DNA of 64,000 nt from Octopus sinensis (Eukaryota). A program made the position numbers and the translations under genes. The stretch is taken from NCBI RefSeq assembly GCF_006345805.1, contig NC_043023.1:14756001-14820000 (forward strand). The letters run 5' to 3'. This document shows, piece after piece, positions 8,791-58,494 of the stretch (position 1 is the stretch's first letter; every line of letters begins with the position of its first letter). Under the pieces are notes generated by a model. It did no database searches, was not told where the DNA came from, and saw only the letters and a program-made list of their open reading frames with translations.

Positions 8791-9213
8791 CTGCACCAGA
8801 TTTCTGTGACTGTTTTGGCACAGTTTCTACAACTGGGTGCCCTCCCTAACACCAACCACCGAGCCCAAGGTGCCACAGGACTGAACCCGGAACCATGTGG
8901 TTGGTAAGCAAGCTTGGTTTGGTAAGGATAAAAAAAAAGTACTCCATGTAGTGAGAGATGAATATCATTTAATATACACTATTTACAAAATAATTATTAA
9001 TAGTTTCATGCTTTAGAGATACAATAAATTGGTAGATGCATCTCCAAGCAATCTTTCAGATTCAGTTCATAATGTTAGATGTATGTGAAAACCAGGATGC
9101 TCATTTAATAGAAAACATGAGAAAAAAGAAGAAGAAAACACATGTAGAAGGTTGATACAAAAAGTGGAATGAGAAGAAGAAGAAACATAAGAAAAGCAAA
9201 AGATCATCTTCTT

Positions 9214-24428: not shown

Positions 24429-25123
24429 TTAGTTATTGTGGGTAGAGAGCACTCAGACCAGCTGGTATCTCTCTTCCACGTTTCAGCAGTCTTGACAAAT
24501 CTCCAGATTTGTCCATCTCCCGAAGACTGAAGCTTTCCTGTAGAGCTGAGTTCCTATTCAGGGAAGCCACTACACGTAGCTTCGGACGTACATCGGACGG
24601 AAAGCCTGGGCGTGTTCGGAAGGTGGTCCGATTTTCCCGCCCAGCTTTAACTGAGGCCAGATGGTAAGAGGTTGCCTCAGTGGGGTCCGTAAAAGACAAC
24701 TTGATGAGCCTAGGTTTTGGGCCAGGTCGTCCAAGGCGGATAGCACCCGTTGGGGGAACGCAGCCTAGGTCTTTGGCTGAGTTGGCAGCAAAAGCCTGAA
24801 GATCAGCCATGTCTTCTGGCACCCCAATGGCAATGACTTCATGGGTGGCAGAATCCGCGGTCTTAAATGCGACAAGAGGTACAGGGAGGTTCTTTAGCAG
24901 AGCATTCCGATAAGACCCCTCATTGTGGAGTCCAACCTGAATGGTTGCTTTTATTCCTGCTACTTCCCCTTTTAAAGCACAGATCGATTGTTGCAGTTCT
25001 GCAAGAACCGCACTGGTCAATTGGTGTTGTTGTTGTTGCTGCTGTTGCTCTGGTTGTGGTTGATTTTGTTGTTGCTGTTGTTGTTGTTTGATGTCGTTGC
25101 TGCTGCTCTGGTTGTGGTTGATT

Positions 25124-25154
<31 letters not shown>

Positions 25155-25158
25155 TCTA
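24401..25158 (-). CDS. LINE ORF1 (coiled-coil plus RLG..KPRLIK motif), polyQ N-terminus, probable indel near 24520
   Basis: LAELQQSICALKGEV coiled coil and IRLGRPGPKPRLIKLSF motif typical of CR1/L2/Jockey-group ORF1. An alternative frame continues GDGQIWRFVK...TQGN* to TAA at 24401-24403. Confidence 0.7.
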
Positions 25159-28380: not shown

Positions 28381-28584
28381 TACCTTTTGACCTACAGATT
28401 TAAAAAATAATTTTTTACATGTGTGCATGTATGTATATGTGTGTATGTATCCTTGTAGAGAGAGAGAGAGAGAGACTACTATAAAATTACAGTGTGTGTG
28501 AAAATCATTTTTTAAGGGAGAGAAATGCTTCAAGATGTGTTTCTGATCTATTCTTCTTTTTCATTGTCTTTAGGGGTCCTTTTC

Positions 28585-28825
28585 CTATGAGTAAAAGAGT
28601 AAACAGTACTTCCAAGTTCCGTAAAATCCATTTATTGGACATGCCCGTAGTTGTAGATCTTCTTCTTCTTGTCTTAAGACAGCATTCACCCAGGGTGGGT
28701 TGAGCTGGCTTCATTCCTCCTCAATGCTGCATCTCTCACAAACGCTGACCAGACCTGGCGATTTGTGGCTAGCGACCACATGATCTCCAACCACTCCCTA
28801 TTCCAGCGGCGAATGCCGTAGATAT
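28585..28825 (-). mobile_element. Left inverted-repeat arm: 3' end of an RTE-clade LINE
   Basis: Minus strand continues in frame from the array: GPHIYGIRRWNREWLEIMWSLATNRQVWSAFVRDAALRRNEASSTHPG*, then (AAG)n and ~70 bp more. Confidence 0.85.
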
Positions 28826-28832
28826 GGGGGCC

Positions 28833-31800
28833 TAGGTTGGGTTCCAAATCAGCCTTGACTGTCATCAGTCAGGTTTTTCATTGTCCACCACAACGCTTTT
28901 GCCAACCCTGAAGGGGAGCTGGGGCAATTGCTTCGTAGGTTGGGTTCCAGATCAGCCTTGACTGTTATCAGCCAGGTTTTTCATTGTCCACCACATCGCT
29001 TTCGCCAACGATGAGAGGGAAGCTGGGGCAATTGCTTCATAGGTTGGGTTCCAGATCAGCCTTGACTGTCATCAGCCAGGTTTTTCGTTGTCCACCACAT
29101 CGCTTTCGCAAACCATGAGAGGGAAGCTGAGGCAATTGCTTCGTAGGTTGGGTTCCAGATAAGCCTTGACTGTCATCAGCCAGGTTTTTCGTTGTCCACC
29201 ACATCACTTTCGCCAACAATGAGAGGGAAGCTGGGACAATTGCTTCGTAGGTTGGGTTCCAGATCAGTCTTGACTGTCATCAGCCAGATTTTTCATTGTC
29301 CACCACATCACTTTCGCCAACAATGAGAGGGAAGCTGGGGCAATTGCTTCGTAGGTTGGGGTCCAGATCAGCCCTGACTGTCATCAGCCAGGTTTTTCGT
29401 TGTCCACCACATCGCTTTCGCCAACAAGGAGAGGGAAGCTGGAGCAATTGCTTCGTAGGTGGGTTCCAGATCAGCCTTGACTGTCATCAGCCAGGTTTTT
29501 CGTTGTCCACCACATCGCTTTCGCCAACCCTGAGAGGGGAGCTGGGGCAATTGCTTCGTAGGTTGGGTTCCAGATAAGCCTTGACTGTCATCAGCCAGGT
29601 TTTTCGTTGTCCAGCACATCACTTTCGCCAGCAATGAGAGGGAAGCTGGGGCAATTGCTTCGTAGGTTGGGTTCCAGATCAGCCTTGACTGTCATCAGCC
29701 AGGTTTTTTGTTGTCCACCACATCGCTTTCGCCAACAATGAGAGGAGAGCTGGGACAATTGCTTCGTAGGTTGGGTTCCAGATCAGCCTTGACTGTCATC
29801 AGCCAGGTTTTTTGTTGTTCACCACATCGCTTTCGGCAACCATGAGAGGGAAGCTGGGGCAATTGCTTCGTAGGTTGGGTTCCAGATCAGCCTTGACTGT
29901 CATCAGCCAGGTTTTTTTTGTCCACCACATCACTTTCGCCAACAATGAGAGGAAGCTGGGGCAATTGCTTCATAGGTTGGGTTCCAGATCAGCCTTGACT
30001 GTCATCAGCCAGGTTTTTCGTTGTCCACCACATCGCTTTCGCCAACCCTGAGAGGGGAGCTGGGGCAATTGCTTCGTAGGTTGGGTTCCAGATCAGCCTT
30101 GACTGTCATCAGCCAGGTTTTTCGTTGTCCACCACATCGCTTTCGCCAACAATGAGAGGGGAGCTGGGGCAATTGCTTCGTAGGTTGGGTTCCAGATCAG
30201 CATTGACTGTCATCAGCCAGTTTTTCGTTGTCCACCACATCGCTTTCGCCAACAATGAGAGGGAAGCTGGGGCAATTGCTTCGTAGGTTGGGTTCCAGAT
30301 CAGCCTTGACTGTCATCAGCCAGGTTTTTCGTTGTCCACCACATCGCTTTCGCCAACCCTGAGAGGGGAGCTGGGGCAATTGCTTCATAGGTTGGGTTCC
30401 AGATCAGCCTTAACTGTCATCAGCCAGGTTTTTCGTTGTCCACCACATCGCTTTCGCCAACCCTGAGAGGGGAGCTGGGGCAATTGCTTCATAGGTTGGG
30501 TTCCAGATCAGCCTTAACTGTCACAGCCAGGTTTTTCGTTGTCCACCACATCGCTTTCGCCAACCCTGAGAGGGGAGCTGGGGCAATTGCTTCATAGGTT
30601 GGGTTCCAGATCAGCCTTAACTGTCATCAGCCAGGTTTTTCGTTGTCCACCACATCGCTTTCGCCAACCATGAGAGGGGAGCTGGGGCAATTGCTTCATA
30701 GGTTGGGTTCCAGATCAGCCTTAACAGTCACAGCCAGGTTTTTCGTTGTCCACCACATCGCTTTCGCCAACCCTGAGAGGGGAGCTGGGGCAATTGCTTC
30801 ATAGGTTGGGTTCCAGATCAGCCTTAACTGTCATCAGCCAGGTTTTTCGTTGTCCACATCGCTTTCGCCAACCCTGAGAGGGGAGCTGGGGCAATTGCTT
30901 CATAGGTTGGGTTCCAGATCAGCCTTAACAGTCACAGCCAGGTTTTTCGTTGTCCACCACATCGCTTTCGCCAACCCTGGGAGGGGAGCTAGGGCAATTG
31001 CTTCATAGGTTGGTTTCCAGATCAGCCTTAACTGTCATCAGCCAGGTTTTTTGTTGTCCACCACATCGCTTTCGCCAACCCTGAGAGGTGAGCTGGGGCA
31101 ATTGCTTCATAGGTTGGGTTCCAGATCAGCCTTAACTGTCATCAGCCAGGTTTTTCGTTGTCCACATTGCTTTCGCCAACCCTGAGAGGTGAGCTGGGGC
31201 AATTGCTTCATAGGTTGGGTTCCAGATCAGCCTTGACTGTCATCAGCCAGGTTTTTCGTTGTCCACCACATCGCTTTCGCCAACAATGAGAGGGAAGCTG
31301 GGGCAATTGCTTCGTAGGTTGGGTTCCAGATCAGCCTTGACTGTCATCAGCCAGGTTTTTCGTTGTCCACCACATCGCTTTCGCCAACAATGAGAGGGAA
31401 GCTGGGGCAATTGCTTCGTAGGTTGGGTTCCAGATCAGCCTTGACTGTCATCAGCCAGGATTTTTGTTTGTCCACACATCGCTTTCGCCAACCATGAGAG
31501 GGGAGCTGGGGCAATTGCTTCGTAGGTTGGGTTCCAGATCAGCCTTGACTGTCATCAGCCAGGTTTTTCGTTGTCCACCACATCGCTTTCGCCAACCCTA
31601 AAGGGGAGCTGGGGCAATTGCTTCATAGGTTGGGTTCCAGATCAGCCTTAACTGTCATCAGCCAGGATTTTCGTTGTCCACCACATCGCTTTCGCCAACC
31701 ATGAGAGGGGAGCTGGGGCAATTGCTTCGTAGGTTGGGTTCCAGATCAGCCTTGACTGTCATCAGCCAGGTTTTTCGTTGTCCACCACATCGCTTTCGCC

Positions 31801-34800
31801 AACGCTGAGAGGGGAGCTGGGGCAATTGCTTCATAGGTTGGGTTCCAGATCAGCCTTAACTGTCATCAGCCAGGATTTTCGTTGTCCACCACATCGCTTT
31901 CGCCAACTCTGAGTAGGGGAGCTGGGGCAATTGCTTCATAGGTTGGGTTCCAGATCAGCCTTAACTGTCACAGCCAGGTTTTTTGTTGTCCACCACATCG
32001 CTTTCGCCAACCCTGAGGGTGAGCTGGGGCAATTGCTTCATAGGTTGGGTTCCAGATCAGCCTTAACTGTCATCAGCCAGCTTTTTTGTTGTCCACCACA
32101 TCACTTTCGCCAACCCTGAGAGGTGAGCTGGGGCAATTGCTTCGTAGGTTGGGTTCCAGATCAGCCTTGACTGTCATCAGCCAGGTTTTTTGTTGTCCAC
32201 CACATCGCTTTCGCCAACAATGAGAGGAGAGCTGGGACAATTGCTTCGTAGGTTGGGTTCCAGATCAGCCTTGACTGTCATCAGCCAGGTTTTTTGTTGT
32301 CCACCACATCACTTTCGCCAACCCTGAGAGGGGAGCTGGGGCAATTGCTTCGTAGGTTGGGTTCCAGATCAGCCTTGACTGTCATCAGCCAGGTTTTTTG
32401 TTGTTCACCACATCGCTTTCGCCAACCATGAGAGGGGAGCTGGGGCAATTGCTTCGTAGGTTGGGTTCCAGATCAGCCTTGACTGTCATCAGCCAGGTTT
32501 TTTGTTGTCCACCACATCACTTTCGCCAACCCTGAGAGGGGAGCTGGGGCAATTGTTGCTTCGTGTTGGGTTCCAGATCAGCCTTGACTGTCATCAGCCA
32601 GGTTTTTCGTTGTCCACATCGCATTCGCCAACCCTGAGAGGGGAGCTGGGGCAATTGCTTCGTAGGTTGGGTTCCAGATCAGCCTTGATTGTCATCAGCC
32701 AGGTTTTTCGTTGTCCACATCGCTTTCGACAACAATGAGAGGAGAGCTGGACAATTGCTTCATAGGTTGGTTCCAGATCAGCCTTGATTGTCATCAGCCA
32801 GGTTTTTTGTTGTTCACCACATCGCTTTCGCCAACCATGAGAGGGAAGCTGGGGCAATTGCTTCGTAGGTTGGGTTCCAGATCAGCCTTGACTGTCATCA
32901 GCCAGGTTTTTTGTTGTGTCCACCACATCTTTCGCAAACCCTGAGAGGGGAGCTGGGGCAATTGCTTCGTAGGTTGGGTTCCAGATCAGCCTTGACTGTC
33001 ATCAGCCAGGTTTTTCGTTGTCTTGTCCACCACATCGCTTTCGCCAACCCTGAAGGGGAGCTGGGGCAATTGCTTCGTAGGTTGGGTTCCAGATCAGCCT
33101 TGACTGTCATCAGCCAGGTTTTTCGTTGTTCACCACATCGCTTTCGCCAACACTGAAGGGGAGCTGGGGCAATTGCTTCGTAGGTTGGGTTCCAGATGAG
33201 CCTTGACTGTCATCAGCCAGGTTTTTCTTGTTTTCACCACATCGCTTTCGCCAACCATGAGAGGGAAGCTGGGGCAATTGCTTCGTAGGTTGGGTTCCAG
33301 ATCAGCCTTGACTGTCATCAGCCAGGTTTTTTGTTGTCCACCACATCGCTTTCGTCAACCATGAGAGGAGAGCTGGGGCAATTGCTTCGTAGGTTGGGTT
33401 CCAGATCAGCCTTGACTGTCATCAGCCAGGTTTTTCGTTGTCCACCACATCGCTTTCGCCAACCCTGAGAGGGGAGCTGGGGCAATTGCTTTGTAGGTTG
33501 GGTTCCAGATCAGCCTTGACTGTCATCAGCCAGGTTTTTTTGTTTTCCACCACATCGCTTTCGCCAACCATGAGAGAGGAGCTGGGGCAATTGCTTCGTA
33601 GGTTGGGTTCCAGAACAACCTTGACTGGCATCAGCCAGGTTTTTTGTTGTCCACCACATCGCTTTCGCCAACCATGAGAGGGAAGCTGGGGCAATTGCTT
33701 CGTAGGTTGGGTTCCAGATCAGCCTTGACTGTCATCAGCCAGTTTTTTTGTTGTCCACCACATCGCTTTCGCCAACCATGAGAAAGGAGCTGGGGCAATT
33801 GCTTCGTAGGTTGGGTTCCAGATCAGCCTTGACTGTCATCAGCCAGGTTTTTTGTTGTCCACCACATCGCTTTCGCCAACCATGAGAGGGGAGCTGGGGC
33901 AATTGCTTCGTTGGTTGGGTTCCAGATCAGCCTTGACTGTCATCAGCCAGGTTTTTTGTTGTCCACCACATCGCTTTCGCCAACAATGACAGGAGAGCTG
34001 GGACAATTGCTTCGTAGGTTGGGTTCCAGATCAGCCTTGACTGTCATCAGCCAGGTTTTTTGTTGTTCACCACATCACTTTCGCCAACCATGAGAGGGAA
34101 GCTGGGGCAATTGCTTCGTAGGTTGGGTTCCAGATCAGCCTTGACTGTCATCAGCCAGGTTTTTTGTTGTCCACCACATCACTTTCGCCAACCCTGAGAG
34201 GGGAGCTGGGGCAATTGCTTCGTAGGTTGGGTTCCAGATCAGCCTTGACTGTCATCAGCCAGGTTTTTCGTTGTCCACATCGCTTTCGCCAACCATGAGA
34301 GGGGAGCTGGGGCAATTGCTTCGTAGGTTGGGTTCCAGATCAGCCTTGACTGTCATCAGCCAGGTTTTTCGTTGTCCACCACATCGCTTTCGCCAACAAT
34401 GAGAGGGAAGCTGGGGCAATTGCTTCGTAGGTTGGGTTCCAGATCAGCCTTGACTGTCATCAGCCAGGTTTTTCGTTGTCCACCACATCGCTTTCGCCAA
34501 CCATGAGAGGGAAGCTGGGGCAATTGCTTCGTAGGTTGGGTTCCAGATCAGCCTTGACTGTCATCAGCCAGGTTTTTTGTTGTCCACCACATCGCTTTCG
34601 CCAACCATGAGAGGGGAGCTGGGGCAATTGCTTGGAAGGTTGGGTTCCAGATCAGCCTTGACTGTCATCAGCCAGGTTTTTCGTTGTTCACCACATCGCT
34701 TTCGCCAACCATGAGAGGGAAGCTGGGGCAATTGCTTCGTAGGTTGGGTTCCAGATCAGCCTTGACTGGCATCAGCCAGGTTTTTTGTTGTCCACCACAT

Positions 34801-37800
34801 CGCTTTCGTCAACCATGAGAGGGGAGCTGGGGCAATTGCTTCGTAGGTTGGGTTCCAGATCAGCCTTGACTGTCATCAGCCAGGTTTTTTGTTGTCCACC
34901 ACATCGCTTTCGCCAACCATGAGAGGGGAGCTGGGGCAATTGCTTCGTAGGTTGGGTTCCAGATCAGCCTTGACTGTCATCAGCCAGGATTTTTGTTGTC
35001 CACCACATCGCTTTCGCCAACCATGAGAGGGGAGCTGGGGCAATTGATTGGAAGGTTGGGTTCCAGATCAGCCTTGACTGTCATCAGCCAGGTTTTTCGT
35101 GTTGTTCATCCCACATCGCTTTCGCCAACCATCAGAGGGAAGCTGGGGCAATTGCTTCGTAGGTTGGGTTCCAGATCAGCCTTGACTGTCATCAGCCAGG
35201 TTTTTCGTGTCACCACATCGCTTCGCCAACCTGCAAGAGGGAAGCTGGGGCAATTGCTTCGTAGGTTGGGTTCCAGATCAGCCTTGACTGTCATCAGCCA
35301 GGTTTTTCGTTGTTCACCACATCGCTTTCGCCAACCATCAGAGGGAAGCTGGGGCAATTGCTTCGTAGGTTGGGTTCCAGATCAGCCTTGACTGTCATCA
35401 GCCAGGTTTTTTGTTGTCCACCACATCGCTTTCGCCATCCTGAGGGGAGCTGGGGCAATTGCTTCAAGGTTGGGTTCCAGATCAGCCTTGACTGTCATCA
35501 GCCAGGTTTTTCGTTGTCCACCACATCGCTTTCGCCAACCCCCCTGATGGGGAGCTGGGGCAATTGCTTCGTAGGTTGGGTTCCAGATCAGCCTTGACTG
35601 TCATCAGCCAGGTTTTTCGTTGTTCACCACATCGCTTTCGCCAACACTGAAGGGGAGCTGGGGCAATTGCTTCGTAGGTTGGGTTCCAGATCAGCCTTGA
35701 CTGTCATCAGCCAGGTTTTTCTTTGTTCACCACATCGCTTTCGCCAACCATGAGAGGGAAGCTGGGGCAATTGCTTCGTAGGTTGGGTTCCAGATCAGCC
35801 TTGACTGTCATCAGCCAGGTTTTTTGTTGTCCACCACATCGCTTTCGCCAACCATGAGAGGGGAGCTGGGGCAATTGCTTCGTAGGTTGGGTTCCAGATC
35901 AGCCTTGACTGTCATCAGCCAGGTTTTTCGTTGTCCACCACATCGCTTTCGCCAACCCTGAGAGGGGAGCTGGGGCAATTGCTTGTAGGTTGGGTTCCAG
36001 ATCAGCCTTGACTGTCATCAGCCAGGTTTTTTGTTTTCCACCACATCGCTTTCGCCAACCATGAGGGGAGCTGGGGCAATTGCTTCGTAGGTTGGGTTCC
36101 AGATCAGCCTTGACTGCATCAGCCAGGTTTTTTGTTGTCCACCACATCGCTTTCGCCAACCATGAGAGGGAAGCTGGGGCAATTGCTTCGTAGGTTGGGT
36201 TCCAGATCAGCCTTGACTGTCATCAGCCAGTTTTTTGTTGTCCACCACATCGCTTTCGCCAACCATGAGAGGGAGCTGGGGCAATTGCTTCGTAGGTGGG
36301 TTCCAGATCAGCCTTGACTGTCATCAGCCAGGTTTTTTTGTTGTCCACCACATCGCTTTCGCCAACCATGAGAGGGGAGCTGGGGCAATTGCTTCGTTGG
36401 TTGGGTTCCAGATCAGCCTTGACTGTCATCAGCCAGGTTTTTTGTTGTCCACCACATCGCTTTCGCCAACAATGACAGGAGAGCTGGGACAATTGCTTCG
36501 TAGGTTGGGTTCCAGATCAGCCTTGACTGTCATCAGCCAGGTTTTTTGTTGTCCACCACATCACTTTCGCCAACCCTGAGAGGGGAGCTGGGGCAATTGC
36601 TTCGTAGGTTGGGTTCCAGTTCAGCCTTGACTGTCATCAGCCAGGTTTTTCGTTGTCCACATCGCTTTCGCCAACCATGAGAGGGGAGCTGGGGCAATTG
36701 CTTCGTAGGTTGGGTTCCAGATCAGCCTTGACTGTCATCAGCCAGGTTTTTCGTTGTCCACCACATCGCTTTCGCCAACACATGAGAGGGAAGCTGGGGC
36801 AATTGCTTCGTAGGTTGGGTTCCAGATCAGCCTTGACTGTCATCAGCCAGGTTTTTCGTTGTCCACCACATCGCTTTCGCCAACCATGAGAGGGAAGCTG
36901 GGGCAATTGCTTCGTAGGTTGGGTTCCAGATCAGCCTTGACTGTCATCAGCCAGGTTTTTCGTTGTCCACCACATCGCTTTCGCCAACCCTGAAGGGGAG
37001 CTGGGGCAATTGCTTCGTAGGTTGGGTTCCAGATCAGCCTTGACTGGCATCAGCCAGGTTTTTCGTTGTTCACCACATCGCTTTCGCCAACCCTGAAGGG
37101 GAGCTGGGGCAATTGCTTCGAAGGTTGGGTTCCAGATCAGCCTTGACTGTCATCAGCCAGGTTTTTCATTGTTCACCACATCGCTTTCGCCAACCATGAG
37201 AGGGGAGCTGGGGCAATTGCTTGGAAGGTTGGGTTCCAGATCAGCCTTGACTGTCATCAGCCAGGATTTTTGTTGTCCACCACATCGCTTTCGCCAACCA
37301 TGAGAGGGGCGCTGGGGCAATTGCTTCGAAGGTTGGGTTCCAGATCAGCCTTGACTGTCATCAGCCAGGTTTTTCGTTGTTCACCACATCGCTTTCGCCA
37401 ACCATGAGAGGGAGACTGGGGCAATTGCTTCGTAGGTTGGGTTCCAGATCAGCCTTGACTGTCATCAGCCAGGTTTTTTGTTGTCCACCACATCGCTTTC
37501 GCCAACCATGAGAGGGGAGCTGGGGCAATTGCTTCGTAGGTTGGGTTCCAGATCAGCCTTGACTGTCATCAGCCAGGTTTTTTGTTGTCCACCACATCGC
37601 TTTCGCCAACAGTGAGAGGAGAGCTGGGACAATTGCTTCGTAGGTTGGGTTCCAGATCAGCCTTGACTGTCATCAGCCAGGTTTTTTGTTGTTCACCACA
37701 TCGCTTTCGCCAACCATGAGAGGGAAGCTGGGGCAATTGCTTCGTAGGTTGGGTTCCAGATCAGCCTTGACTGTCATCAGCCAGGTTTTTCGTTGTCCAC

Positions 37801-40800
37801 ATCGCTTTCGCCAACCCTGAGAGGGGAGCTGGGGCAATTGCTTCGTAGGTTGGGTTCCAGATCAGCCTTGACTGTCATCAGCCAGGTTTTCGTTGTCCAC
37901 CACATCGCTTTCGCCAACCATGAGAGGGGAGCTGGGGCAATTGCTTCGTAGGTTGGGTTCCAGATCAGCCTTGACTGTCATCAGCCAGGTTTTTTGTTGT
38001 CCACCACATCGCTTTCGCCAACAATGAGAGGAGAGCTGGGACAATTGCTTCGTAGGTTGGGTTCCAGATCAGCCTTGACTGTCATCAGCCAGGTTTTTTG
38101 TTGTCCACCACATCGCTTTCGCCAACCCTGAGAGGGGAGCTGGGGCAATTGCTTCGTAGGTTGGGTTCCAGATCAGCCTTGACTGTCATCAGCCAGGTTT
38201 TTTCGTTGTCCACATCGCTTTCGCCAACCATGAGAGGGGAGCTGGGGCAATTGCTTCGTAGGTTGGGTTCCAGATCAGCCTTGACTGTCATCAGCCAGGT
38301 TTTTCGTTGTCCACCACATCGCTTTCGCCAACCATGAGAGGGAAGCTGGGGCAATTGCTTCGTAGGTTGGGTTCCAGATCAGCCTTGACTGTCATCAGCC
38401 AGGTTTTTCGTTGTCCACCACATCGCTTTCGCCAACCATGAAGGGAAGCTGGGGCAATTGCTTCGTAGGTTGGGTTCCAGATCAGCCTTGACTGTCATCA
38501 GCCAGGTTTTTCGTTGTCCACCACCACATCGCTTTCGCCAACCATGAAGGGGAGCTGGGGCAATTGCTTCGTAGGTTGGGTTCCAGATCAGCCTTGACTG
38601 TCATCAGCCAGGTTTTTCGTTGTTCACCACATCGTCTTTCGCCAACCCTGAAGGGGAGCTGGGGCAATTGCTTCGAAGGTTGGGTTCCAGATCAGCCTTG
38701 ACTGTCATCAGCCAGGTTTTTCGTTGTCCACCACATCGCTTTCGCCAACCATGAGAGGGGAGCTGGGGCAATTGCTTCGAAGGTTGGGTTCCAGATCAGC
38801 CTTGACTGTCATCAGCCAGGATTTTTGTTGTCCACCACATCGCTTTCGCCAACCATGAGAGGGGAGCTGGGGCAATTGCTTCGAAGGTTGGGTTCCAGAT
38901 CAGCCTTGACTGTCATCAGCCAGGTTTTTCGTTGTTCACCACATCGCTTTCGCCAACCATGAGAGGGAAGCTGGGGCAATTGCTTCGTAGGTTGGGTTCC
39001 AGATCAGCCTTGACTGTCATCAGCCAGGTTTTTTGTTGTCCACCACATCGCTTTCGCCAACCATGAGAGGGGAGCTGGGGCAATTGCTTCGTAGGTTGGG
39101 TTCCAGATCAGCCTTGACTGTCATCAGCCAGGTTTTTGTTGTCCACCACATCGCTTTCGCCAACCAAGAGAGGAGAGCTGGGACAATTGCTTCATAGGTT
39201 GGGTTCCAGATCAGCCTTGACTGTCATCAGCCAGGTTTTTTGTTGTTCACCACATCGCTTTCGCCAACCATGAGAGGGAAGCTGGGGCAATTGCTTCGTA
39301 GGTTGGGTTCCAGATCAGCCTTGACTGTCATCAGCCAGGTTTTTTGTTGTCCACCACATCACTTTCGCCAACCCTGAGAGGGGAGCTGGGGCAATTGCTT
39401 CGTAGGTTGGGTTCCAGATCAGCCTTGACTGTCATCAGCCAGGTTTTTCGTTGTCCACCACATCGCTTTCGCCAACAATGAGAGGAAGCTGGGGCAATTG
39501 CTTCGTAGGTTGGGTTCCAGATCAGCCTTGACTGTCATCAGCCAGGTTTTTCGTTGTCCACCACATCGCTTTCGCCAACCATGAGAGGGAAGCTGGGGCA
39601 ATTGCTTCGTAGGTTGGGTTCCAGATCAGCCTTGACTGTCATCAGCCAGGTTTTTCGTTGTCCACCACATCGCTTTCGCCATCCTGAAGGGGAGCTGGGG
39701 CAATTGCTTCAAAGGTTGGGTTCCAGATCAGCCTTGACTGTCATCAGCCAGGTTTTTCGTTGTCCACCACATCGCTTTCGCCAACCCTGAAGGGGAGCTG
39801 GGGCAATTGCTTCGTAGGTTGGGTTCCAGATCAGCCTTGACTGTCATCAGCCAGGTTTTTCGTTGTTCACCACATCGCTTTCGCCAACCTGAAGGGGAGC
39901 TGGGGCAATTGCTTCGAAGGTTGGGTTCCAGATCAGCCTTGACTGTCATCAGCCAGGTTTTTTGTTGTCCACCACATCGCTTTCGCCAACCATGAGAGGG
40001 GAGCTGGGGCAATTGCTTCGTAGGTTGGGTTCCAGATCAGCCTTGACTGTCATCAGCCAGGTTTTTTGTTGTCCACCACATCGCTTTCGCCAACCATGAG
40101 AGGGGAGCTGGGGCAATTGCTTCGTAGGTTGGGTTCCAGATCAGCCTTGACTGTCATCAGCCAGGTTTTTTGTTGTCCACCACATCGCTTTCGCCAACCA
40201 TGAGAGGGGAGCTGGGGCAATTGCTTGGAAGGTTGGGTTCCAGATCAGCCTTGACTGTCATCAGCCAGGTTTTTCGTTGTTCACCACATCGCTTTCGCCA
40301 ACCATGAGAGGGAAGCTGGGGCAATTGCTTCGTAGGTTGGGTTCCAGATCAGCCTTGACTGTCATCAGCCAGGTTTTTCGTTGTCCACCACATCGCTTTC
40401 GCCATCCTGAAGGGGAGCTGGGGCAATTGCTTCAAAGGTTGGGTTCCAGATCAGCCTTGACTGTCATCAGCCAGGTTTTTCGTTGTCCACCACATCGCTT
40501 TCGCCAACCCTGAAGGGGAGCTGGGGCAATTGCTTCGTAGGTTGGGTTCCAGATCAGCCTTGACTGTCATCAGCCAGGTTTTTCGTTGTTCACCACATCG
40601 CTTTCGCCAACCCTGAAGGGGAGCTGGGGCAATTGCTTCGAAGGTTGGGTTCCAGATCAGCCTTGACTGTCATCAGCCAGGTTTTTTGTTGTCCACCACA
40701 TCGCTTTCGCCAACCATGAGAGGGAAGCTGGGGCAATTGCTTCGTAGGTTGGGTTCCAGATCAGCCTTGACTGTCATCAGCCAGGTTTTTTGTTGTCCAC

Positions 40801-43800
40801 CACATCGCTTTCGTCAACCATGAGAGGGGAGCTGGGGCAATTGCTTCGTAGGTTGGGTTCCAGATCAGCCTTGACTGTCATCAGCCAGGTTTTTCGTTGT
40901 CCACCACATCGCTTTCGCCAACCCTGAGAGGGGAGCTGGGGCAATTGCTTTGTAGGTTGGGTTCCAGATCAGCCTTGACTGTCATCAGCCAGGTTTTTTT
41001 GTTGTCCACCACATCGCTTTCGCCAACCATGAGAGGGGAGCTGGGGCAATTGCTTCGTAGGTTGGGTTCCAGATCAGCCTTGACTGTCATCAGCCAGGTT
41101 TTTCGTTGTCCACCACATCGCTTTCGCCAACACATGAGAGGAAGCTGGGGCAATTGCTTCGTAGGTTGGGTTCCAGATCAGCCTTGACTGTCATCAGCCA
41201 GGTTTTTTGTTCGTTGTCCACCACATCGCTTTCGCAACCATGAGAGGGAAGCTGGGGCAATTGCTTCGTAGGTTGGGTTCCAGATCAGCCTTGACTGTCA
41301 TCAGCCAGGTTTTTCGTTGTCCACCACATCGCTTTCGCCATCCTGAAGGGGAGCTGGGGCAATTGCTTCAAAGGTTGGGTTCCAGATCAGCCTTGACTGT
41401 CATCAGCCAGGTTTTTCGTTGTCCACCACATCGCTTTCGCCAACCCTGAAGGGGAGCTGGGGCAATTGCTTCGTAGGTTGGGTTCCAGATCAGCCTTGAC
41501 TGTCATCAGCCAGGTTTTTCGTTGTCCACCACATCGCTTTCGCCATCCTGAAGGGGAGCTGGGGCAATTGCTTCAAAGGTTGGGTTCCAGATCAGCCTTG
41601 ACTGTCATCAGCCAGGTTTTTCGTTGTCCACCACATCGCTTTCGCCAACCCTGAAGGGGAGCTGGGGCAATTGCTTCGTAGGTTGGGTTCCAGATCAGCC
41701 TTGACTGTCATCAGCCAGGTTTTTCGTTGTTCACCACATCGCTTTCGCCAACCCTGAAGGGGAGCTGGGGCAATTGCTTCGTAGGTTGGGTTCCAGATCA
41801 GCCTTGACTGGCATCAGCCAGGTTTTTTGTTGTCCACCACATCGCTTTCGTCAACCATGAGAGGGGAGCTGGGGCAATTGCTTCGTAGGTTGGGTTCCAG
41901 ATCAGCCTTGACTGTCATCAGCCAGGTTTTTTGTTGTCCACCACATCGCTTTCGCCAACCATGAGAGGGGAGCTGGGGCAATTGCTTCGTAGGTTGGGTT
42001 CCAGATCAGCCTTGACTGTCATCAGCCAGGTTTTTGTTGTCCACCACATCGCTTTCGCCAACCATGAGAGGGAGCTGGGGCAATTGCTTCGAAGGTTGGG
42101 TTCCAGATCAGCCTTGACTGTCATCAGCCAGGTTTTTCGTTGTTCACCACATCGCTTTCGCCAACCATGAGAGGGAAGCTGGGGCAATTGCTTCGTAGGT
42201 TGGGTTCCAGATCAGCCTTGACTGTCATCAGCCAGGTTTTTCGTTGTTCACCACATCGCTTTCGCCAACCATGAGAGGGAAGCTGGGGCAATTGCTTCGT
42301 AGGTTGGGTTCCAGATCAGCCTTGACTGTCATCAGCCAGGTTTTTCGTTGTCCACCACATCGCTTTCGCCATCCTGAAGGGGAGCTGGGGCAATTGCTTC
42401 AAAGGTTGGGTTCCAGATCAGCCTTGACTGTCATCAGCCAGGTTTTTCGTTGTCCACCACATCGCTTTCGCCAACCCTGAAGGGGAGCTGGGGCAATTGC
42501 TTCGTAGGTTGGGTTCCAGATCAGCCTTGACTGTCATCAGCCAGGTTTTTCGTTGTTCACCACATCGCTTTCGCCAACCCTGAAGGGGAGCTGGGGCAAT
42601 TGCTTCGAAGGTTGGGTTCCAGATCAGCCTTGACTGTCATCAGCCAGGTTTTTCATTGTTCACCACATCGCTTTCGCCAACCATGAGAGGGAAGCTGGGG
42701 CAATTGCTTCGTAGGTTGGGTTCCAGATCAGCCTTGACTGTCATCAGCCAGGTTTTTTGTTGTCCACCACATCGCTTTCGTCAACCATGAGAGGGGAGCT
42801 GGGGCAATTGCTTCGTAGGTTGGGTTCCAGATCAGCCTTGACTGTCATCAGCCAGGTTTTTCGTTGTCCACCACATCGCTTTCGCCAACCCTGAGAGGGG
42901 AGCTGGGGCAATTGCTTCGTAGTAGGTGGGTTCCAGATCAGCCTTGACTGTCATCAGCCAGGTTTTTGTTGTCCACCACATCGCTTTCGCCAACCATGAG
43001 AGGGGAGCTGGGGCAATTGCTTTAGGTTGGGTTCCAGATCAGCCTTGACTGTCATCAGCCAGGTTTTTCGTTGTTCACCACATCGCTTTCGCCAACCATG
43101 AGAGGGAGCTGGGGCAATTGCTTCGTAGGTTGGGTTCCAGATCAGCCTTGACTGTCATCAGCCAGGTTTTTCGTTGTTCACCACATCGCTTTCGCCAACC
43201 ATGAGAGGGAAGCTGGGCAATTGCTTCGTAGGTTGGGTTCCAGATCAGCCTTGACTGTCATCAGCCAGGTTTTTCGTTGTCCACCACATCGCTTTCGCAA
43301 TCCTGAAGGGGAGCTGGGGCAATTGCTTCAAGGTTGGGTTCCAGATCAGCCTTGACTGTCATCAGCCAGGTTTTTCGTTGTCCACCACATCGCTTTCGCC
43401 AACCCTGAGGGGAGCTGGGGCAATTGCTTCGTAGGTTGGGTTCCAGATCAGCCTTGACTGTCATCAGCCAGGTTTTTCGTTGTTCACCACATCGCTTTCG
43501 CCAACCCTGAGGGGAGCTGGGGCAATTGCTTCGAAGGTTGGGTTCCAGATCAGCCTTGACTGTCATCAGCCAGGTTTTTTGTTGTCCACCACATCGCTTT
43601 CGCCAACCATGAGAGGGGAGCTGGGGCAATTGCTTCGTAGGTTGGGTTCCAGATCAGCCTTGACTGTCATCAGCCAGGTTTTTCGTTGTCCACCACATCG
43701 CTTTCGCCAACCCTGAGAGGGGAGCTGGGGCAATTGCTTTGTAGGTTGGGTTCCAGATCAGCCTTGACTGTCATCAGCCAGGTTTTTTTGTTGTCCACCA

Positions 43801-46800
43801 CATCGCTTTCGCCAACCATGAGAGGGGAGCTGGGGCAATTGCTTCGTAGGTTGGGTTCCAGATCAGCCTTGACTGTCATCAGCCAGGTTTTTCGTTGTCC
43901 ACCACATCGCTTTCGCCAACAATGAGAGGGAAGCTGGGGCAATTGCTTCGTAGGTTGGGTTCCAGATCAGCCTTGACTGTCATCAGCCAGGTTTTTCGTT
44001 GTCCACCACATCGCTTTCGCAACCATGAGAGGGAAGCTGGGGCAATTGCTTCGTAGGTTGGGTTCCAGATCAGCCTTGACTGTCATCAGCCAGGTTTTTC
44101 GTTGTCCACCACATCGCTTTCGCCATCCTGAAGGGGAGCTGGGGCAATTGCTTCAAAGGTTGGGTTCCAGATCAGCCTTGACTGTCATCAGCCAGGTTTT
44201 TCGTTGTCCACCACATCGCTTTCGCCAACCCTGAAGGGGAGCTGGGGCAATTGCTTCGTAGGTTGGGTTCCAGATCAGCCTTGACTGTCATCAGCCAGGT
44301 TTTCGTTGTTCACCACATCGCTTTCGCCAACCTGAAGGGGAGCTGGGGCAATTGCTTCGAAGGTTGGGTTCCAGATCAGCCTTGACTGTCATCAGCCAGG
44401 TTTTTCGTTGTTCCACCACATCGCTTTCGCCAACCATGAGAGGGAAGCTGGGGCAATTGCTTCGTAGGTTGGGTTCCAGATCAGCCTTGACTGGCATCAG
44501 CCAGGTTTTTGTTGTCCACCACATCGCTTTCGTCAACCATGAGAGGGGAGCTGGGGCAATTGCTTCGTAGGTGGGTTCCAGATCAGCCTTGACTGTCATC
44601 AGCCAGGTTTTTTGTTGTCCACCACATCGCTTTCGCCAACCATGAGAGGGGAGCTGGGGCAATTGCTTCGTAGGTTGGGTTCCAGATCAGCCTTGACTGT
44701 CATCAGCCAGGATTTTTGTTGTCCACCACATCGCTTTCGCCAACCATGAGAGGGGAGCTGGGGCAATTGCTTCGAAGGTTGGGTTCCAGATCAGCCTTGA
44801 CTGTCATCAGCCAGGTTTTTCGTTGTCCACCACATCGCTTTCGCCAACCATGAGAGGGAAGCTGGGGCAATTGCTTCGTAGGTTGGGTTCCAGATCAGCC
44901 TTGACTGTCATCAGCCAGGTTTTTCGTTGTTCACCACATCGCTTTCGCCAACCATGAGAGGGAAGCTGGGGCAATTGCTTCGTAGGTTGGGTTCCAGATC
45001 AGCCTTGACTGTCATCAGCCAGGTTTTTCGTTGTCCACCACATCGCTTTCGCCATCCTGAAGGGGAGCTGGGGCAATTGCTTCGTAGGTTGGGTTCCAGA
45101 TCAGCCTTGACTGTCATCAGCCAGGTTTTTCGTTGTCCACCACATCGCTTTCGCCAACCTGAAGGGGAGCTGGGGCAATTGCTTCGTAGGTTGGGTTCCA
45201 GATCAGCCTTGACTGTCATCAGCCAGGTTTTTCGTTGTTCACCACATCGCTTTCGCCAACCCTGAAGGGGAGCTGGGGCAATTGCTTCGTAGGTTGGGTT
45301 CCAGATCAGCCTTGACTGTCATCAGCCAGGTTTTCATTGTTCACCACATCGCTTTCGCCAACCATGAGAGGAAGCTGGGGCAATTGCTTCGTAGGTTGGG
45401 TTCCAGATCAGCCTTGACTGTCATCAGCCAGGTTTTTTGTTGTCCACCACATCGCTTTCGCCAACCATGAGAGGGGAGCTGGGGCAATTGCTTCGTAGGT
45501 TGGGTTCCAGATCAGCCTTGACTGTCATCAGCCAGGTTTTTCGTTGTCCACCACATCGCTTTCGCCAACCCTGAGAGGGGAGCTGGGGCAATTGCTTCGT
45601 AGGTTGGGTTCCAGATCAGCCTTGACTGTCATCAGCCAGGTTTTTCGTTGTCCACCACATCGCTTTCGCCAACAATGAGAGGAGAGCTGGGACAATTGCT
45701 TCATAGGTTGGGTTCCAGATCAGCCTTGACTGTCATCAGCCAGGTTTTTTGTTGTTCACCACATCGCTTTCGCCAACCATGAGAGGGAAGCTGGGGCAAT
45801 TGCTTCGTAGGTTGGGTTCCAGATCAGCCTTGACTGTCATCAGCCAGGTTTTTTGTTGTCCACCACATCACTTTCGCCAACCTGAGAGGGGAGCTGGGGC
45901 AATTGCTTCGTAGGTTGGGTTCCAGATCAGCCTTGACTGTCATCAGCCAGGTTTTTCGTTGTCCACCACATCACTTTCGCCAACAATGAGAGGGAAATTG
46001 GGGCAATTGCTTCGTAAGTTGGGTTCCAGATCAGCCTTGACTGTCATCAGCCAGGTTTTTCGTTGTCCACCACATCGCTTTCGCCAACCCTGAGAGGGGA
46101 GCTGGGGCAATTGCTTCGTAGGTTGGGTTCCAGATCAGCCTTGACTGTCATCAGCCAGGTTTTTCGTTGTCCACCACATCGCTTTCGCCAACCCTGAGAG
46201 GGGAGCTGGGGCAATTGCTTCATAGGTTGGGTTCCAGATCAGCCTTGACTGTCATCAGCCAGGTTTTTCGTTGTCCACCACATCGCTTTCGCCAACCCTG
46301 AGAGGGAAGCTGGGGCAATTGCTTCGTAGGTTGGGTTCCAGATCAGCCTTGACTGTCATCAGCCAGGTTTTTCGTTGTCCACCACATCGCTTTCGCCAAC
46401 CATGAGAGGGAAGCTGGGGCAATTGCTTCGTAGGTTGGGTTCCAGATCAGCCTTGACTGTCATCAGCCAGGTTTTTCGTTGTCCACCACATCGCTTTCGC
46501 CAACCCTGAGAGGGGAGCTGGGGCAATTGCTTCGTAGGTTGGGTTCCAGATCAGCCTTGACTGTCATCAGCCAGGTTTTTCGTTGTCCACCACATCGCTT
46601 TCGCCAACCCTGAGAGGGGAGCTGGGGCAATTGCTTCTAGGTTGGGTTCCAGATCAGCCTTGACTGTCATCAGCCAGGTTTTTCGTTGTCCACCACATCA
46701 CTTTCGCCAACAATGAGAGGGAAATTGGGGCAATTGCTTCGTAAGTTGGGTTCCAGATCAGCCTTGACTGTCATCAGCCAGGTTTTTCGTTGTCCACCAC

Positions 46801-49800
46801 ATCACTTTCGCCAACAATGAGAGGGAAGCTGGGGCAATTGCTTCGTAAGTTGGGTTCCAGATCAGCCTTGACTGTCATCAGCCAGGTTTTTCGTTGTCCA
46901 CCACATCGCTTTCGCCAACAATGAGAGGGAAGCTGGGGCAATTGCTTCATAGGTTGGGTTCCAGATCAGCCTTGACTGTCATCAGCCAGGTTTTTCGTTG
47001 TCCACCACATCGCTTTCGCCAACCCTGAGAGGGGAGCTGGGGCAATTGCTTCGTAGGTTGGGTTCCAGATCAGCCTTGACTGTCATCAGCCAGGTTTTTC
47101 GTTGTCCACCACATCGCTTTCGCCAACAATGAGAGGGAAGCTGGGGCAATTGCTTCATAGGTTGGGTTCCAGATCAGCCTTGACTGTCATCAGCCAGGTT
47201 TTTCGTTGTCCACCACATCGCTTTCGCCAACAATGAGAGGGAAGCTGGGGCAATTGCTTCGTAAGTTGGGTTCCAGATCAGCCTTGACTGTCATCAGCCA
47301 GGTTTTTCGTTGTCCACCACATCACTTTCGCCAACAATGAGAGGGAAGCTGGGGCAATTGCTTCGTAGGTTGGGTTCCAGATCAGCCTTGACTGTCATCA
47401 GCCAGGTTTTTCGTTGTCCACCACATCGCTTTCGCCAACCCTGAGAGGGGAGCTGGGGCAATTGCTTCGTAGGTTGGGTTCCAGATCAGCCTTGACTGTC
47501 ATCAGCCAGGTTTTTCGTTGTCCACCACATCGCTTTCGCCAACAATGAGAGGGAAGCTGGGGCAATTGCTTCGTAGGTTGGGTTCCAGATCAGCCTTGAC
47601 TGTCATCAGCCAGGTTTTTCGTTGTCCACCACATCGCTTTCGCCAACCCTGAGAGGGGAGCTGGGGCAATTGCTAGGTTGGGTTCCAGATCAGCCTTGAC
47701 TGTCATCAGCCAGGTTTTTCGTTGTCCACCACATCGCTTTCGCAAAACCTGAGAGGGAAGCTGGGGCAATTGCTTCGTAGGTTGGGTTCCAGATCAGCCT
47801 TGACTGTCATCAGCCAGGTTTTTTGTTGTCACCACATCGCTTTCGCCAACCCTGAGAGGGGAGCTGGGGCAATTGCTTCGTAGGTTGGGTTCCAGATCAG
47901 CCTTGACTGTCATCAGCCAGGTTTTTCGTTGTCCACCACATCGCTTTCGCCAACAATGAGAGGGAAGCTGGGGCAATTGCTTCGTAGGTTGGGTTCCAGA
48001 TCAGCCTTGACTGTCATCAGCCAGGTTTTTCGTTGTCCACCACATCGCTTTCGCCAACAATGAGAGGGAAGCTGGGGCAATTGCTTCATAGGTTGGGTTC
48101 CAGATCAGCCTTGACTGTCATCAGCCAGGTTTTTCGTTGTCCACCACATCGCTTTCGCCAACCCTGAGAGGGAAGCTGGGGCAATTGCTTCATAGGTTGG
48201 GTTCCAGATCAGCCTTGACTGTCATCAGCCAGGTTTTTCGTTGTCCACCACATCACTTTCGCCAACAATGAGAGGGAAGCTGGGGCAATTGCTTCGTAGG
48301 TTGGGTTCCAGATCAGCCTTGACTGTCATCAGCCAGGTTTTTCGTTGTTCACCACATCGCTTTCGCCAACCTGAAGGGGAGCTGGGGCAATTGCTTCATA
48401 GGTTGGGTTCCAGATCAGCCTTGACTGTCATCAGCCAGGTTTTTCGTTGTCCACCACATCGCTTTCGCCAACCATGAGAGGGGAGCTGGGGCAATTGCTT
48501 CATAGGTTGGGTTCCAGATCAGCCTTGACTGTCATCAGCCAGGTTTTTCGTTGTCCACCACATCGCTTTCGCCAACCGAGAGGGGAGCTGGGGCAATTGC
48601 TTCGTAGGTGGGTTCCAGATCAGCCTTGACTGTCATCAGCCAGGTTTTTTGTTGTCCACCACATCGCTTTCGCCTACCCTGAGAGGGGAGCTGGGGCAAT
48701 TGCTTCATAGGTTGGGTTCCAGATCAGCCTTGACTGTCATCAGCCAGGTTTTTCGTTGTCCACCACATCGCTTTCGCCAACCCTGAGAGGGGAGCTGGGG
48801 CAATTGCTTCGTAGGTTGGGTTCCAGATCAGCCTTGACTGTCATCAGCCAGGTTTTTTGTTGTCCACCACATCGCTTTCGCCTACCCTGAGAGGGGAGCT
48901 GGGGCAATTGCTTCGTAGGTTGGGTTCCAGATCAGCCTTGACTGTCATCAGCCAGGTTTTTCGTTGTCCACCACATCGCTTTCGCCAACCCTGAGAGGGG
49001 AGCTGGGGCAATTGCTTCGTAGGTTGGGTTCCAGATCAGCCTTGACTGTCATCAGCCAGGTTTTTTGTTGTCCACCACATCGCTTTCGCCTACCCTGAGA
49101 GGGGAGCTGGGGCAATTGCTTCGTAGGTTGGGTTCCAGATCAGCCTTGACTGTCATCAGCCAGGTTTTTCGTTGTCCACCACATCGCTTTCGCCAACCAT
49201 GAGAGGGAAGCTGGGCAATTGCTTCGTAGGTTGGGTTCCAGATCAGCCTTGACTGTCATCAGCCAGGTTTTTCGTTGTCCACCACATCGCTTTCGCCAAC
49301 CATGAGAGGGTAGCTGGGGCAATTGCTTCCTAGGTTGGGTTCCAGATCAGCCTTGACTGTCATCAGCCTGGTTTTTCGTTGTCCACCACATCGCTTTCGC
49401 CAACCCTGAGAGGGGAGCTGGGGCAATTGCTTCGTAGGTTGGGTTCCAGATCAGCCTTGACTGTCATCAGCCAGGTTTTTCGTTGTCCACCACATCGCTT
49501 TCGCCAACAATGAGAGGGAAGCTGGGGCAATTGCTTCGTAGGTTGGGTTCCAAATCAGCCTTGACTGTCATCAGCCAGGTTTTTCGTTGTCCACCACATC
49601 GCTTTCGCCAACCCTGAGAGGGGAGCTGGGGCAATTGCTTCGTAGGTTGGGTTCCAGATCAGCCTTGACTGTCATCAGCCAGGTTTTTCGTTGTCCACCA
49701 CATCGCTTTCGCCAACCCTGAAGGGGAGGTGGGGCAATTGCTTCGTAGGTTGGGTTCCAGATCAGCCTTGACTGTTATCAGCCAGGTTTTTTGTTGTCCA

Positions 49801-49880
49801 CCACATCGCTTTTGCCAACAATAAGAGGGAAGCTGGGGTAATTGCTTCGTAGGTTGGGTTCCAGATCAGCCTTGACTGTC
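28833..49880. repeat. ~21-kb tandem array, ~200 copies of a 103-104-bp RTE-LINE-derived unit
   Basis: Unit GGTTGGGTTCCAGATCAGCCTTGACTGTCATCAGCCAGGTTTTTCGTTGTCCACCACATCGCTTTCGCCAACCCTGAGAGGGGAGCTGGGGCAATTGCTTCGTA. The minus strand reads YEAIAPAP..GWRKRCGGQRKTWLMTVKADLEPNL. Copy number estimated as length/104. Confidence 0.97.
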
Positions 49881-49882
49881 AA

Positions 49883-50115
49883 ATATCTACGGCATTTGCC
49901 GCTGGAATAGGGAGTGGTTGGAGATCATGCGGTCGTTAGCCTCAAATCGCCAGGTCTGGTCGGTGTTTGTGAGAGATGCAGCATTGAGGATGAATGAAGC
50001 CAGTTCAACCCACCCCGGGTGAATACTGTAAGAAGAAGAAGATCTACAACTACAGGAATGTCCAATAAATGGATTTTATGGAACTAGGAAGCACTGTTTA
50101 CTCTTTTACTCATAG
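49883..50115 (+). mobile_element. Right inverted-repeat arm: same RTE 3' end in opposite orientation
   Basis: Reverse complement of 28585-28825; about 15 substitutions and one 8-bp indel by manual alignment. Confidence 0.9.
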
Positions 50116-50335
50116 TTATAGATGGCGCTATATAAATTAAGAACTTGAAATTAGTTGGTCTGTATCTTTCTTTTATCTTTTATTTGTTTCAGTCATTTGA
50201 CTGTGGCCATGCTGGAGCACCACCTTTAGTTGAACAAATCAACCCTAGGACTTATTCTTTGTAAGCCTAGTAATTATTCTATCGGTTGTCAAGTGATGTT
50301 GGGGGGGACAAACACAGACACACAAACATATACAT

Positions 50336-50369
<34 letters not shown>

Positions 50370-50462
50370 TAGAAGAAATGAGGTACTCAGAAATTCGGAT
50401 GGTTTTATATTTACAGATATTTATTAGTATGTTACATGTTTTTATACATCATATAACTTAGA

Positions 50463-53419: not shown

Positions 53420-53689
53420 TATTTTCCTCCTCTCACCATACTACACAGATATTTTTCTTCTGAACCATTACCATATATTTCGTTTTTGGATTTGGTTTGC
53501 AAGATTCTTTATATGAGTTCGTGTGTTGAAGCATATTCTGTTGTGTCTGGAGAGAGTCATTTTCTTTTTGTGCCTTATTATGTAACACACTCACTGGTAA
53601 AATTTCCACATTTTTCTTATTTTTATTGTCCTAAAATTTTTTGTTGCACCTTGCAACCTTTCAATAGTTATAAATATATACATATATAA

Positions 53690-58300: not shown

Positions 58301-58494
58301 GTCACCTTGCATAAACCTTTTGCATGGTCTTTCGACCTGCTAGAAAAAGCAGCCAATTTTCCCTTGAACTATACCATAACGTCTAAAAGAGACAAAGATA
58401 AAAATGAAACATTATTCCGCAGCACCCCGTTTGATTCTTTGTTTGGGGCAGGACGGATCTTGTTAAATTTCTTCCAAATTTTCACCAGACTAAA

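What the first reader, a model, noticed from the sequence alone, without database searches (positions are those of the whole stretch)
28585..50115. 21.5-kb foldback-like unit: retrotransposon-derived satellite enclosed by inverted copies of the same retrotransposon's 3' end
Seen: 28585-28825 and 49883-50115 are reverse complements (~94% identical by hand count, one 8-bp indel, several CpG-type transitions). All ~200 units between them point one way. Each arm holds the RTE ORF C-terminus, stop, (AAG)n and ~70 bp more including an AATAAA. The LINE 5' part is entirely absent. The outer ends read C-TA|TGAGT...ACTCA|TA-G, which could be a TA target duplication. Known: foldback/MITE elements can carry internal tandem arrays, but their arms are normally DNA-transposon derived. 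Inference: this is either a composite mobile unit built from LINE sequence, or an inverted-duplication scar that seeded or bounded satellite growth. A transcript spanning it would form a ~233-bp dsRNA stem.
Basis: partly seen in the sequence, partly recalled or inferred. Interest (0 to 1): 0.88.

Follow-up and report, generated by a model that had tools for sequence, protein, structure and literature searches.

The report
Snap-back LINE insertion holding homegrown satellite
This is one retrotransposon insertion whose front end is a reversed copy of its own back end plus 63 bases of neighbouring DNA, likely made by the new DNA folding back on itself during insertion, and inside which a 103/104-base piece of the element later grew to about 203 copies; it is a one-off scar, not a new kind of mobile element.

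Summary
In detail: arms 28585-28825 and 49883-50115 are inverted (218/233 ungapped identity, one 8-bp gap) around 203 same-direction units. The interpretation changes. The ~70 bp after (AAG)n, with its AATAAA, is not LINE: 38 of 38 other family copies stop at the tail, and it belongs to an older repeat whose two halves continue on either flank. An 11-bp target-site duplication (28648-28658, 50113-50123), typical for this RTE-type family, brackets everything; there is no TA duplication. So this is one LINE insertion whose 5' end is an inverted copy of its own 3' end, tail, target site and 63 bp of flank, joined by 3-bp microhomology: a cDNA snap-back, known from R2 and akin to L1 inverted duplications. 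The form is unique (1 of 121 copies screened). The array is a 103-bp ORF segment duplicated with the same junction at more than 40 loci; it grew in place (a 104-bp variant: 110 of 110 genome matches lie here) and is the largest seen (203 versus at most 34 units). Side finding: duplicated copies crowd onto the five smallest chromosomes (14 of 19 versus 2 of 70), hinting at spread after insertion.

The parts
28457..28584 (-). Downstream remainder of the older host repeat X (original 3' flank, not duplicated)
   Evidence: 70-75% matches to dispersed X copies over 28457-28658; alignment
28585..28647 (-). 63 bp of host repeat X that was copied into the right arm; holds the AATAAA
   Evidence: absent from 38 of 38 other RTE 3' ends; 23 homologues at 78-92% elsewhere; length
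28648..28658 (-). 3' copy of the 11-bp target-site duplication
28659..28832 (-). True 3' end of the RTE-type LINE: ORF C-terminus, TGA at 28686-28688, very short 3' UTR, (AAG)n tail
   Evidence: 92-95% identical to dispersed copies over query 1-175; translation
28833..49881 (-). Array of ~203 units of a 103-bp ORF segment (mostly a locus-private 104-bp variant), in frame register with the 3' end; 5'-most unit starts at unit position 72
49882..49883 (.). Inner fold-back junction (one extra A, or CA-T microhomology with a 2-base insert)
   Evidence: sequence; not seen among listed public contigs
49883..50041 (+). Inverted copy of the LINE 3' end (arm positions 8-176, 8-bp deletion before the tail)
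50042..50115 (+). Inverted copy of the 3' TSD (50042-50052) plus 63 bp of flank; 5 of 69 positions differ from the left copy
50113..50123 (-). 5' copy of the 11-bp TSD (1 mismatch); overlaps the inverted arm by 3 bp (microhomology)
   Evidence: bridged by an exact 178-bp contig of run X1
50124..50155 (-). Upstream half of host repeat X (with an internal deletion), i.e. the original 5' flank
   Evidence: alignment with six X copies

Best explanation
A single 5'-truncated RTE-type LINE sits in an older repeat between two copies of an 11-bp target site, and its 5' end is a reversed copy of its own 3' end, tail, target site and 63 bp of flank, likely made when the first-strand cDNA snapped back on itself during target-primed reverse transcription; the 103-bp internal unit then grew in place to about 203 copies. 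Steps: (1, shown) insertion into repeat X with an 11-bp TSD. (2, inferred) reverse transcription stopped at unit position 72; the cDNA 3' end primed on its own strand near arm position 8 and was extended back through the tail, the TSD and 63 nt of the primer strand. (3, inferred) that end annealed to the upstream 11-nt overhang through 3 bases and was joined. (4, shown) the unit-to-unit junction is the family-wide one found at more than 40 loci; whether it came with the RNA or was captured later is open. (5, shown by private and block-wise variants) the array was amplified locally, most likely by unequal exchange. The locus has no transposase ends and is predicted to be immobile and without a function of its own.
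For: Both flanks are the two halves of one host repeat and overlap by exactly 11 bp; family TSDs found in 43 of 66 copies, 41 of them 9-15 bp (loose search, no null). The inverted copy starts exactly at the inner edge of the 5' TSD with 3-bp overlap. 38 of 38 other scored copies end at the tail, so the shared 63+11 bp proves both arms come from one insertion. Against each column's commonest letter in 66 copies the arms share 4 variants, all common family polymorphisms (11-29 of 66), and have 6 and 4 private ones in 145 columns, like the family median of 3.5-4.2%: the arms split at about the time of insertion. Only this copy of 121 has an inverted 3' end upstream. A 104-bp variant matches 110 times in the genome, all 110 in this array; multi-unit blocks recur, 655 shared vs 84 singleton variant cells. 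cDNA snap-back before 5' joining is documented for R2 (PMC11371274, passages).
Against: No listed public contig bridges the inner junction 49881/49883 (2151 pieces not shown). The right outer junction was seen in run X1 (possibly the source sample) and, with only 14 letters beyond it, in X2; not in X3, X4, X8, and no empty allele was seen. No clear microhomology at the inner junction. Dating from 145 columns cannot separate 'at integration' from 'soon after'. Published L1 inverted duplications that I read are of the upstream flank (PMC10191854; bioRxiv 2024.12.14.628481), not of the element's 3' end running into the downstream flank.
Confidence: 0.74

Rival explanations
1. The LINE inserted normally and a later replication or repair template switch (FoSTeS/MMBIR type) copied its 3' end and flank in reverse onto the 5' side.
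For: Same end product; 3-bp microhomology at the outer joint is typical of such events (own knowledge); 4 shared variants could be private history rather than source polymorphism.
Against: The joint falls exactly at the inner edge of the 5' TSD, a place singled out only during integration; the shared variants are all common in the family and private divergence per arm equals the family's.
Confidence: 0.14
2. The inner junction or array length is an assembly error joining unrelated pieces.
For: Inner junction not among listed contigs; many 1-bp homopolymer indels in the array point to noisy long reads.
Against: Arms differ at 15 positions plus 8 bp, so they are not a read chimera; the flanks are two halves of one repeat with a TSD; the outer right junction is exact in X1; the 104-bp variant has no other home in the assembly.
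Confidence: 0.06
3. A foldback/MITE-like composite that moves as a unit using LINE-derived inverted arms.
For: Outward look: long inverted arms around tandem repeats, as in Tetris (PMC4079207, passages).
Against: 1 of 121 copies has the form; none of 42 other array copies has an inverted 5' arm; the arm ends lie in the middle of a host repeat that continues on the left; the TSD is tied to the LINE tail, not to the arm ends; no TA duplication.
Confidence: 0.03
4. Two independent LINE copies inserted head to head by chance around a satellite.
For: The family is abundant (1474 candidates) and arm-to-arm divergence is like copy-to-copy divergence.
Against: Both arms share 74 bp of non-LINE DNA at 93% identity, which other LINE copies lack and other X copies match at about 80% over full length.
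Confidence: 0.01

Closest known systems
cDNA snap-back 5' junctions of R2 retrotransposon insertions (PMC11371274, passages read)
   Same: cDNA 3' end primes on its own cDNA before 5' joining, leaving antisense element sequence fused to the upstream flank
   Different: Seen in cultured cells with R2 proteins; here a germline RTE-type copy, with synthesis running on through the tail, TSD and 63 bp of downstream flank
L1 insertions with local inverted duplication / foldback (PMC10191854; bioRxiv 10.1101/2024.12.14.628481; passages read)
   Same: Short inverted duplication beside a TPRT site, TSD kept, 2-3 bp microhomology; rare (3 cases, 0.3%, in PMC10191854)
   Different: Those duplicate upstream genomic DNA on the reciprocal end; here the primary RT end (element plus downstream flank) is duplicated
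Twin-priming 5' inversions (PMC12016303, passages read)
   Same: Inverted element piece at the 5' end inside a TSD; this family makes them too (4 of 60 copies)
   Different: Twin priming inverts an upstream, non-duplicated piece and cannot bring in tail or flank
RTE-clade non-LTR retrotransposons (PMC2887409, passages read)
   Same: APE endonuclease plus RT in one reading unit, very short 3' UTR ending in (AAG)n/(GAA)n-type repeats, TSD of about 10-20 bp
   Different: No tree was built; about 9% of copies carry an internal 103-bp ORF duplication that breaks the frame
LINE-ORF-derived satellites (HinfI/CR1 in chicken, PROsat, cetacean common satellite; review PMC9659126, passages read)
   Same: Tandem array born from a 3'-proximal ORF piece of a LINE
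   Different: Here every stage (1, 2, 3-34, 203 units) is still inside TSD-flanked LINE copies with one shared junction
Foldback DNA transposons such as Tetris (PMC4079207, passages read)
   Same: Inverted arms plus tandem repeats seeding a satellite
   Different: Arms are LINE plus local flank, single copy, repeats lie between and not within the arms, no transposase-type TSD at arm ends

Membership tests
Foldback/MITE DNA transposon | Several dispersed copies sharing the terminal inverted repeats | tested here: not met
   1 of 121 copies screened; 38 of 38 other arm hits lack the outer 74 bp
Foldback/MITE DNA transposon | TSD directly outside both inverted ends | tested here: not met
   Left end lies inside host repeat X, which continues; 11-bp TSD sits at the LINE tail and at the right end
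Foldback/MITE DNA transposon | Autonomous partner transposase recognising the ends | not tested
   No search made; arm ends are host-repeat DNA
RTE-clade LINE | APE endonuclease and RT domains in the parent element | tested here: met
   RVT_1 E 2e-6 and Exo_endo_phos E 5.5e-4, both under the curated cut-off on fragments; best full-length relative 49% identical carries PF00078+PF14529+PF03372
RTE-clade LINE | Very short 3' UTR ending in short tandem repeats; variable TSD; 5' truncation | tested here: met
   Stop about 15 bp before (AAG)n; TSD in 43 of 66, mostly 9-15 bp; staggered 5' ends
RTE-clade LINE | RT phylogeny within the RTE clade | not tested
   No named references at hand; clade label rests on anatomy and recalled C-terminal motifs
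cDNA snap-back insertion | Antisense copy of already-made cDNA between the 5' flank and the sense body, inside the TSD | tested here: met
cDNA snap-back insertion | Formed in the same event as the insertion | tested here: inconclusive
   Arm divergence fits; no empty or arm-less allele seen
Twin-priming 5' inversion | Inverted piece is upstream element sequence not repeated in the sense part | tested here: not met
   Inverted piece duplicates the 3' end, tail and flank
TE-derived satellite | Head-to-tail units homologous to a TE segment, amplified locally | tested here: met

The most novel reading that the evidence does not exclude
The 103-bp duplication junction spreads sideways into already inserted single-unit LINE copies by ectopic gene conversion, mainly on the smallest chromosomes, so that dead LINE copies act as landing pads for a satellite. 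This locus began as a snap-back palindrome with a loop of only about 40 bases; being break-prone it captured units, and the inverted arms drove it to become the largest array of the family. It would be a complete, dated series from LINE to satellite with a structural trigger.
Probability: 0.27. Interest if true: 0.68.

Novelty: new variant of a known kind. Interest (0 to 1): 0.42.

Why it matters
It is a clean germline fossil of a snap-back integration that copied through the target site into downstream DNA, so far described mainly in cell-culture R2 and somatic L1 data, and it shows how a retrotransposon scar can mimic a foldback transposon. The family also offers a countable series from one unit to 203 with a strong chromosome bias, which makes 'how and where do LINE pieces become satellites' testable in one genome. 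As a single immobile locus it is of moderate interest only.

Tried and rejected
TA target duplication and MITE ends: rejected. AATAAA as the LINE's poly(A) signal: rejected, it lies in host repeat X. Telomerase-like repeated RT slippage making all units in one event: rejected for this array, because variants are shared in blocks and a private 104-bp form dominates. An RNA structure guiding the duplication junction: no support, z = -0.62. A clade of array-bearing copies: inconclusive; markers are few and barely linked, arrays sit on several backgrounds, one arm variant is in 8 of 40 arrays and 0 of 44 singles. Array units look less diverged than single units (2.0% vs 3.4% non-CpG), but the arrays were picked by likeness to the query, so this is not used. 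Expression: no RNA holder listed. Empty allele: none seen in the listed tables of seven run layings; a hole proves nothing. Rfam on host repeat X: nothing near a gathering score. One search's unit splitting lost units and was redone. Earlier scan findings: none. Literature searches listed no paper on this array or on an RTE snap-back; subscription papers and Repbase/Dfam entries were not searchable, so absence from print is not shown.

Full report
Observation. The window is G000:C27:14756001-14820000 of a 2.72-Gb assembly; SINE-like repeats, a C2H2 zinc-finger ORF and about 30 chromosome-size contigs suggest an octopus (recalled, not from a call). Arms 28585-28825 and 49883-50115 are reverse complements over 241 columns, 90.5% with one 8-bp gap, 218/233 ungapped. 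Between them lie 203.3 units of period 104, all on one strand. On the minus strand the last unit runs without a break into the left arm and reads as the end of an RT ORF (…WRKRCGGQRKTWLMTVKADLEPNLGPHIYGIRRW…, and intact copies).

The parent element. Longer copies carry endonuclease and RT pieces (Pfam RVT_1 and Exo_endo_phos below cut-off on fragments; a 1044-aa relative at 49% has both domains), a stop about 15 bp before an (AAG)n tail, staggered 5' ends and TSDs (43 of 66 copies, 41 of them 9-15 bp; loose search without a null). This fits the RTE description in PMC2887409 (passages); no tree was built.

The last 74 bp of each arm are not LINE. Of 40 scored arm matches (1474 candidates), the 38 outside the window all stop at query 165-184 of 250. 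The extra piece has 23 homologues at 78-92% elsewhere: an older repeat, X. X continues for about 130 bp left of the left arm, and its upstream half lies right of the right arm on the minus strand; the two halves overlap by 11 bp: ATCTACAACTA at 28648-28658 and ATCTATAACTA at 50113-50123. That is the insertion's TSD. The right arm holds a third, inverted copy (50042-50052) plus 63 bp of flank and overlaps the 5' TSD by 3 bp. The 'TA duplication' is this microhomology.

Mechanism. Read in element sense: 5' flank, TSD, reversed [63 bp flank, TSD, tail, arm 176 to 8], then unit position 72 onward, array, arm, tail, TSD, 3' flank. Tail, TSD and downstream flank are joined only on the primer strand once reverse transcription has begun, so the simplest source of the reversed piece is the cDNA priming on itself and running back into the primer strand, then joining the upstream overhang by 3 bases (inferred). 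Snap-back of this kind is a named junction class for R2 (PMC11371274, passages). L1 shows rare inverted duplications at TPRT sites, of upstream DNA (PMC10191854; bioRxiv 2024.12.14.628481; passages). Timing: in 145 columns the arms share 4 variants, each present in 11-29 of 66 family copies, and have 6 and 4 private ones; family medians are 3.5% and 4.2%; the non-LINE part differs at 5 of 69. This fits a split at or near insertion but cannot exclude 'soon after'.

Not a mobile unit. None of 42 other array-bearing copies has an inverted 5' arm, and of 121 copies screened only this one has its own 3' end inverted upstream; nine others gave 69-97% inverted matches to flank repeats only. These are samples, not the whole family (1474 candidates). 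Ordinary twin-priming inversions occur in 4 of 60 ORF-picked copies and differ in kind (PMC12016303, passages).

The array. The natural unit is 103 bp of ORF, bounded by a 3-bp CTA microhomology; duplication shifts the frame. Exact patterns find 23 copies with the duplication junction after the first unit and 243 without. Other arrays have 2-34 units, same register, own 5' ends; one insertion is present twice with 17.4 and 14.4 units (L091, L094). The junction motif matches 407 times in the assembly, 158 here and 219 in 42 fetched loci, so no comparable array is likely unless its junction is mutated (one 20-unit array scored 0). A 104-bp variant matches 110 times, all here, and multi-unit blocks recur: growth was local.

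Chromosome bias. Duplicated copies: 14 of 19 placed ones are on C26-C30, 3.7% of the assembly; single-unit copies in two fully listed subsets: 2 of 70; Fisher p 1.6e-10, or 6 of 7 vs 2 of 70 in matched subsets, p 8e-7. A duplicated master moved by the same machinery should scatter like the singles, so something after insertion is implied (inference). Marker analysis could not decide between a master lineage and ectopic transfer. That the one fold-back copy is also the largest array is suggestive but post hoc.

Reality checks. An exact 178-bp contig of run X1 spans 50013-50190; X2 (another study) reaches 14 letters past the joint; X3, X4, X8 show no cover of 50088-50168 at 95%. The inner junction was not among listed pieces. 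Arms differing at 15 sites are not a read chimera.

Transcript. An 850-codon zinc-finger ORF on the minus strand ends at 50888 and points at the right arm; AATAAA at 50420 and 50179 intervene. The arms could pair (-415 kcal/mol); expression is untested.

Verdict. Real; a new variant of known things (snap-back TPRT scar plus LINE-derived satellite), single and immobile. Interest 0.42. Papers seen only as listings: PMC9115989, PMC5932611; passages also from PMC4079207, PMC9659126, PMC13282606, PMC4209133. No supplements were read; repeat libraries in them could already hold this family.

Noticed in passing
genome-wide, C26-C30: RTE copies with the 103-bp duplication are strongly enriched on the five smallest chromosomes (14 of 19 vs 2 of 70) and, on large ones, tend to lie toward ends; same junction everywhere.
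   Followed up: partly
host repeat X, e.g. L042, L043, L045, L047; window 28457-28658 and 50113-50155: Intact X copies show a hammerhead-like core (CTGANGA, short stem, GAAA, palindrome, TC) just upstream of the RTE target site, as in Penelope-like pLTRs (PMC4209133 passages); recognised by eye, no Rfam hit. The window's copy has this core deleted.
   Followed up: partly
window 50888-53440 (-): 850-codon open frame with about 26 C2H2 zinc fingers, 773 bp from the right arm and pointing toward it.
   Followed up: partly
window 21831-25155 (-): Young LINE of another family: 865-codon endonuclease-RT frame (Pfam) preceded by a 240-codon frame with a poly-Q stretch.
   Followed up: partly
L156, L159, L172, L176: Four of 60 ORF-picked RTE copies have twin-priming-type 5' inversions.
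   Followed up: partly
L091 (C11323) and L094 (C29:7.17 Mb): Same insertion present twice with 17.4 and 14.4 units: allele or segmental copy with changed array length.
   Followed up: partly
L041 1448-2334 and 4778-6074 (C13): Another inverted duplication, 573 bp plus 312 bp at about 90% identity around a 2.4-kb spacer, also containing repeat X.
   Followed up: no
G000:C2:192620489-192621754: One duplicated and two single-unit RTE matches within 1.3 kb, suggesting a larger tandem of the 3' region.
   Followed up: no
window 683-2027 and 58494-59398: Tandem arrays of a 169-190 bp SINE-like unit (8 and 5 copies), plus a 30-bp minisatellite at 7325-8791: other short elements also go tandem in this region.
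   Followed up: no
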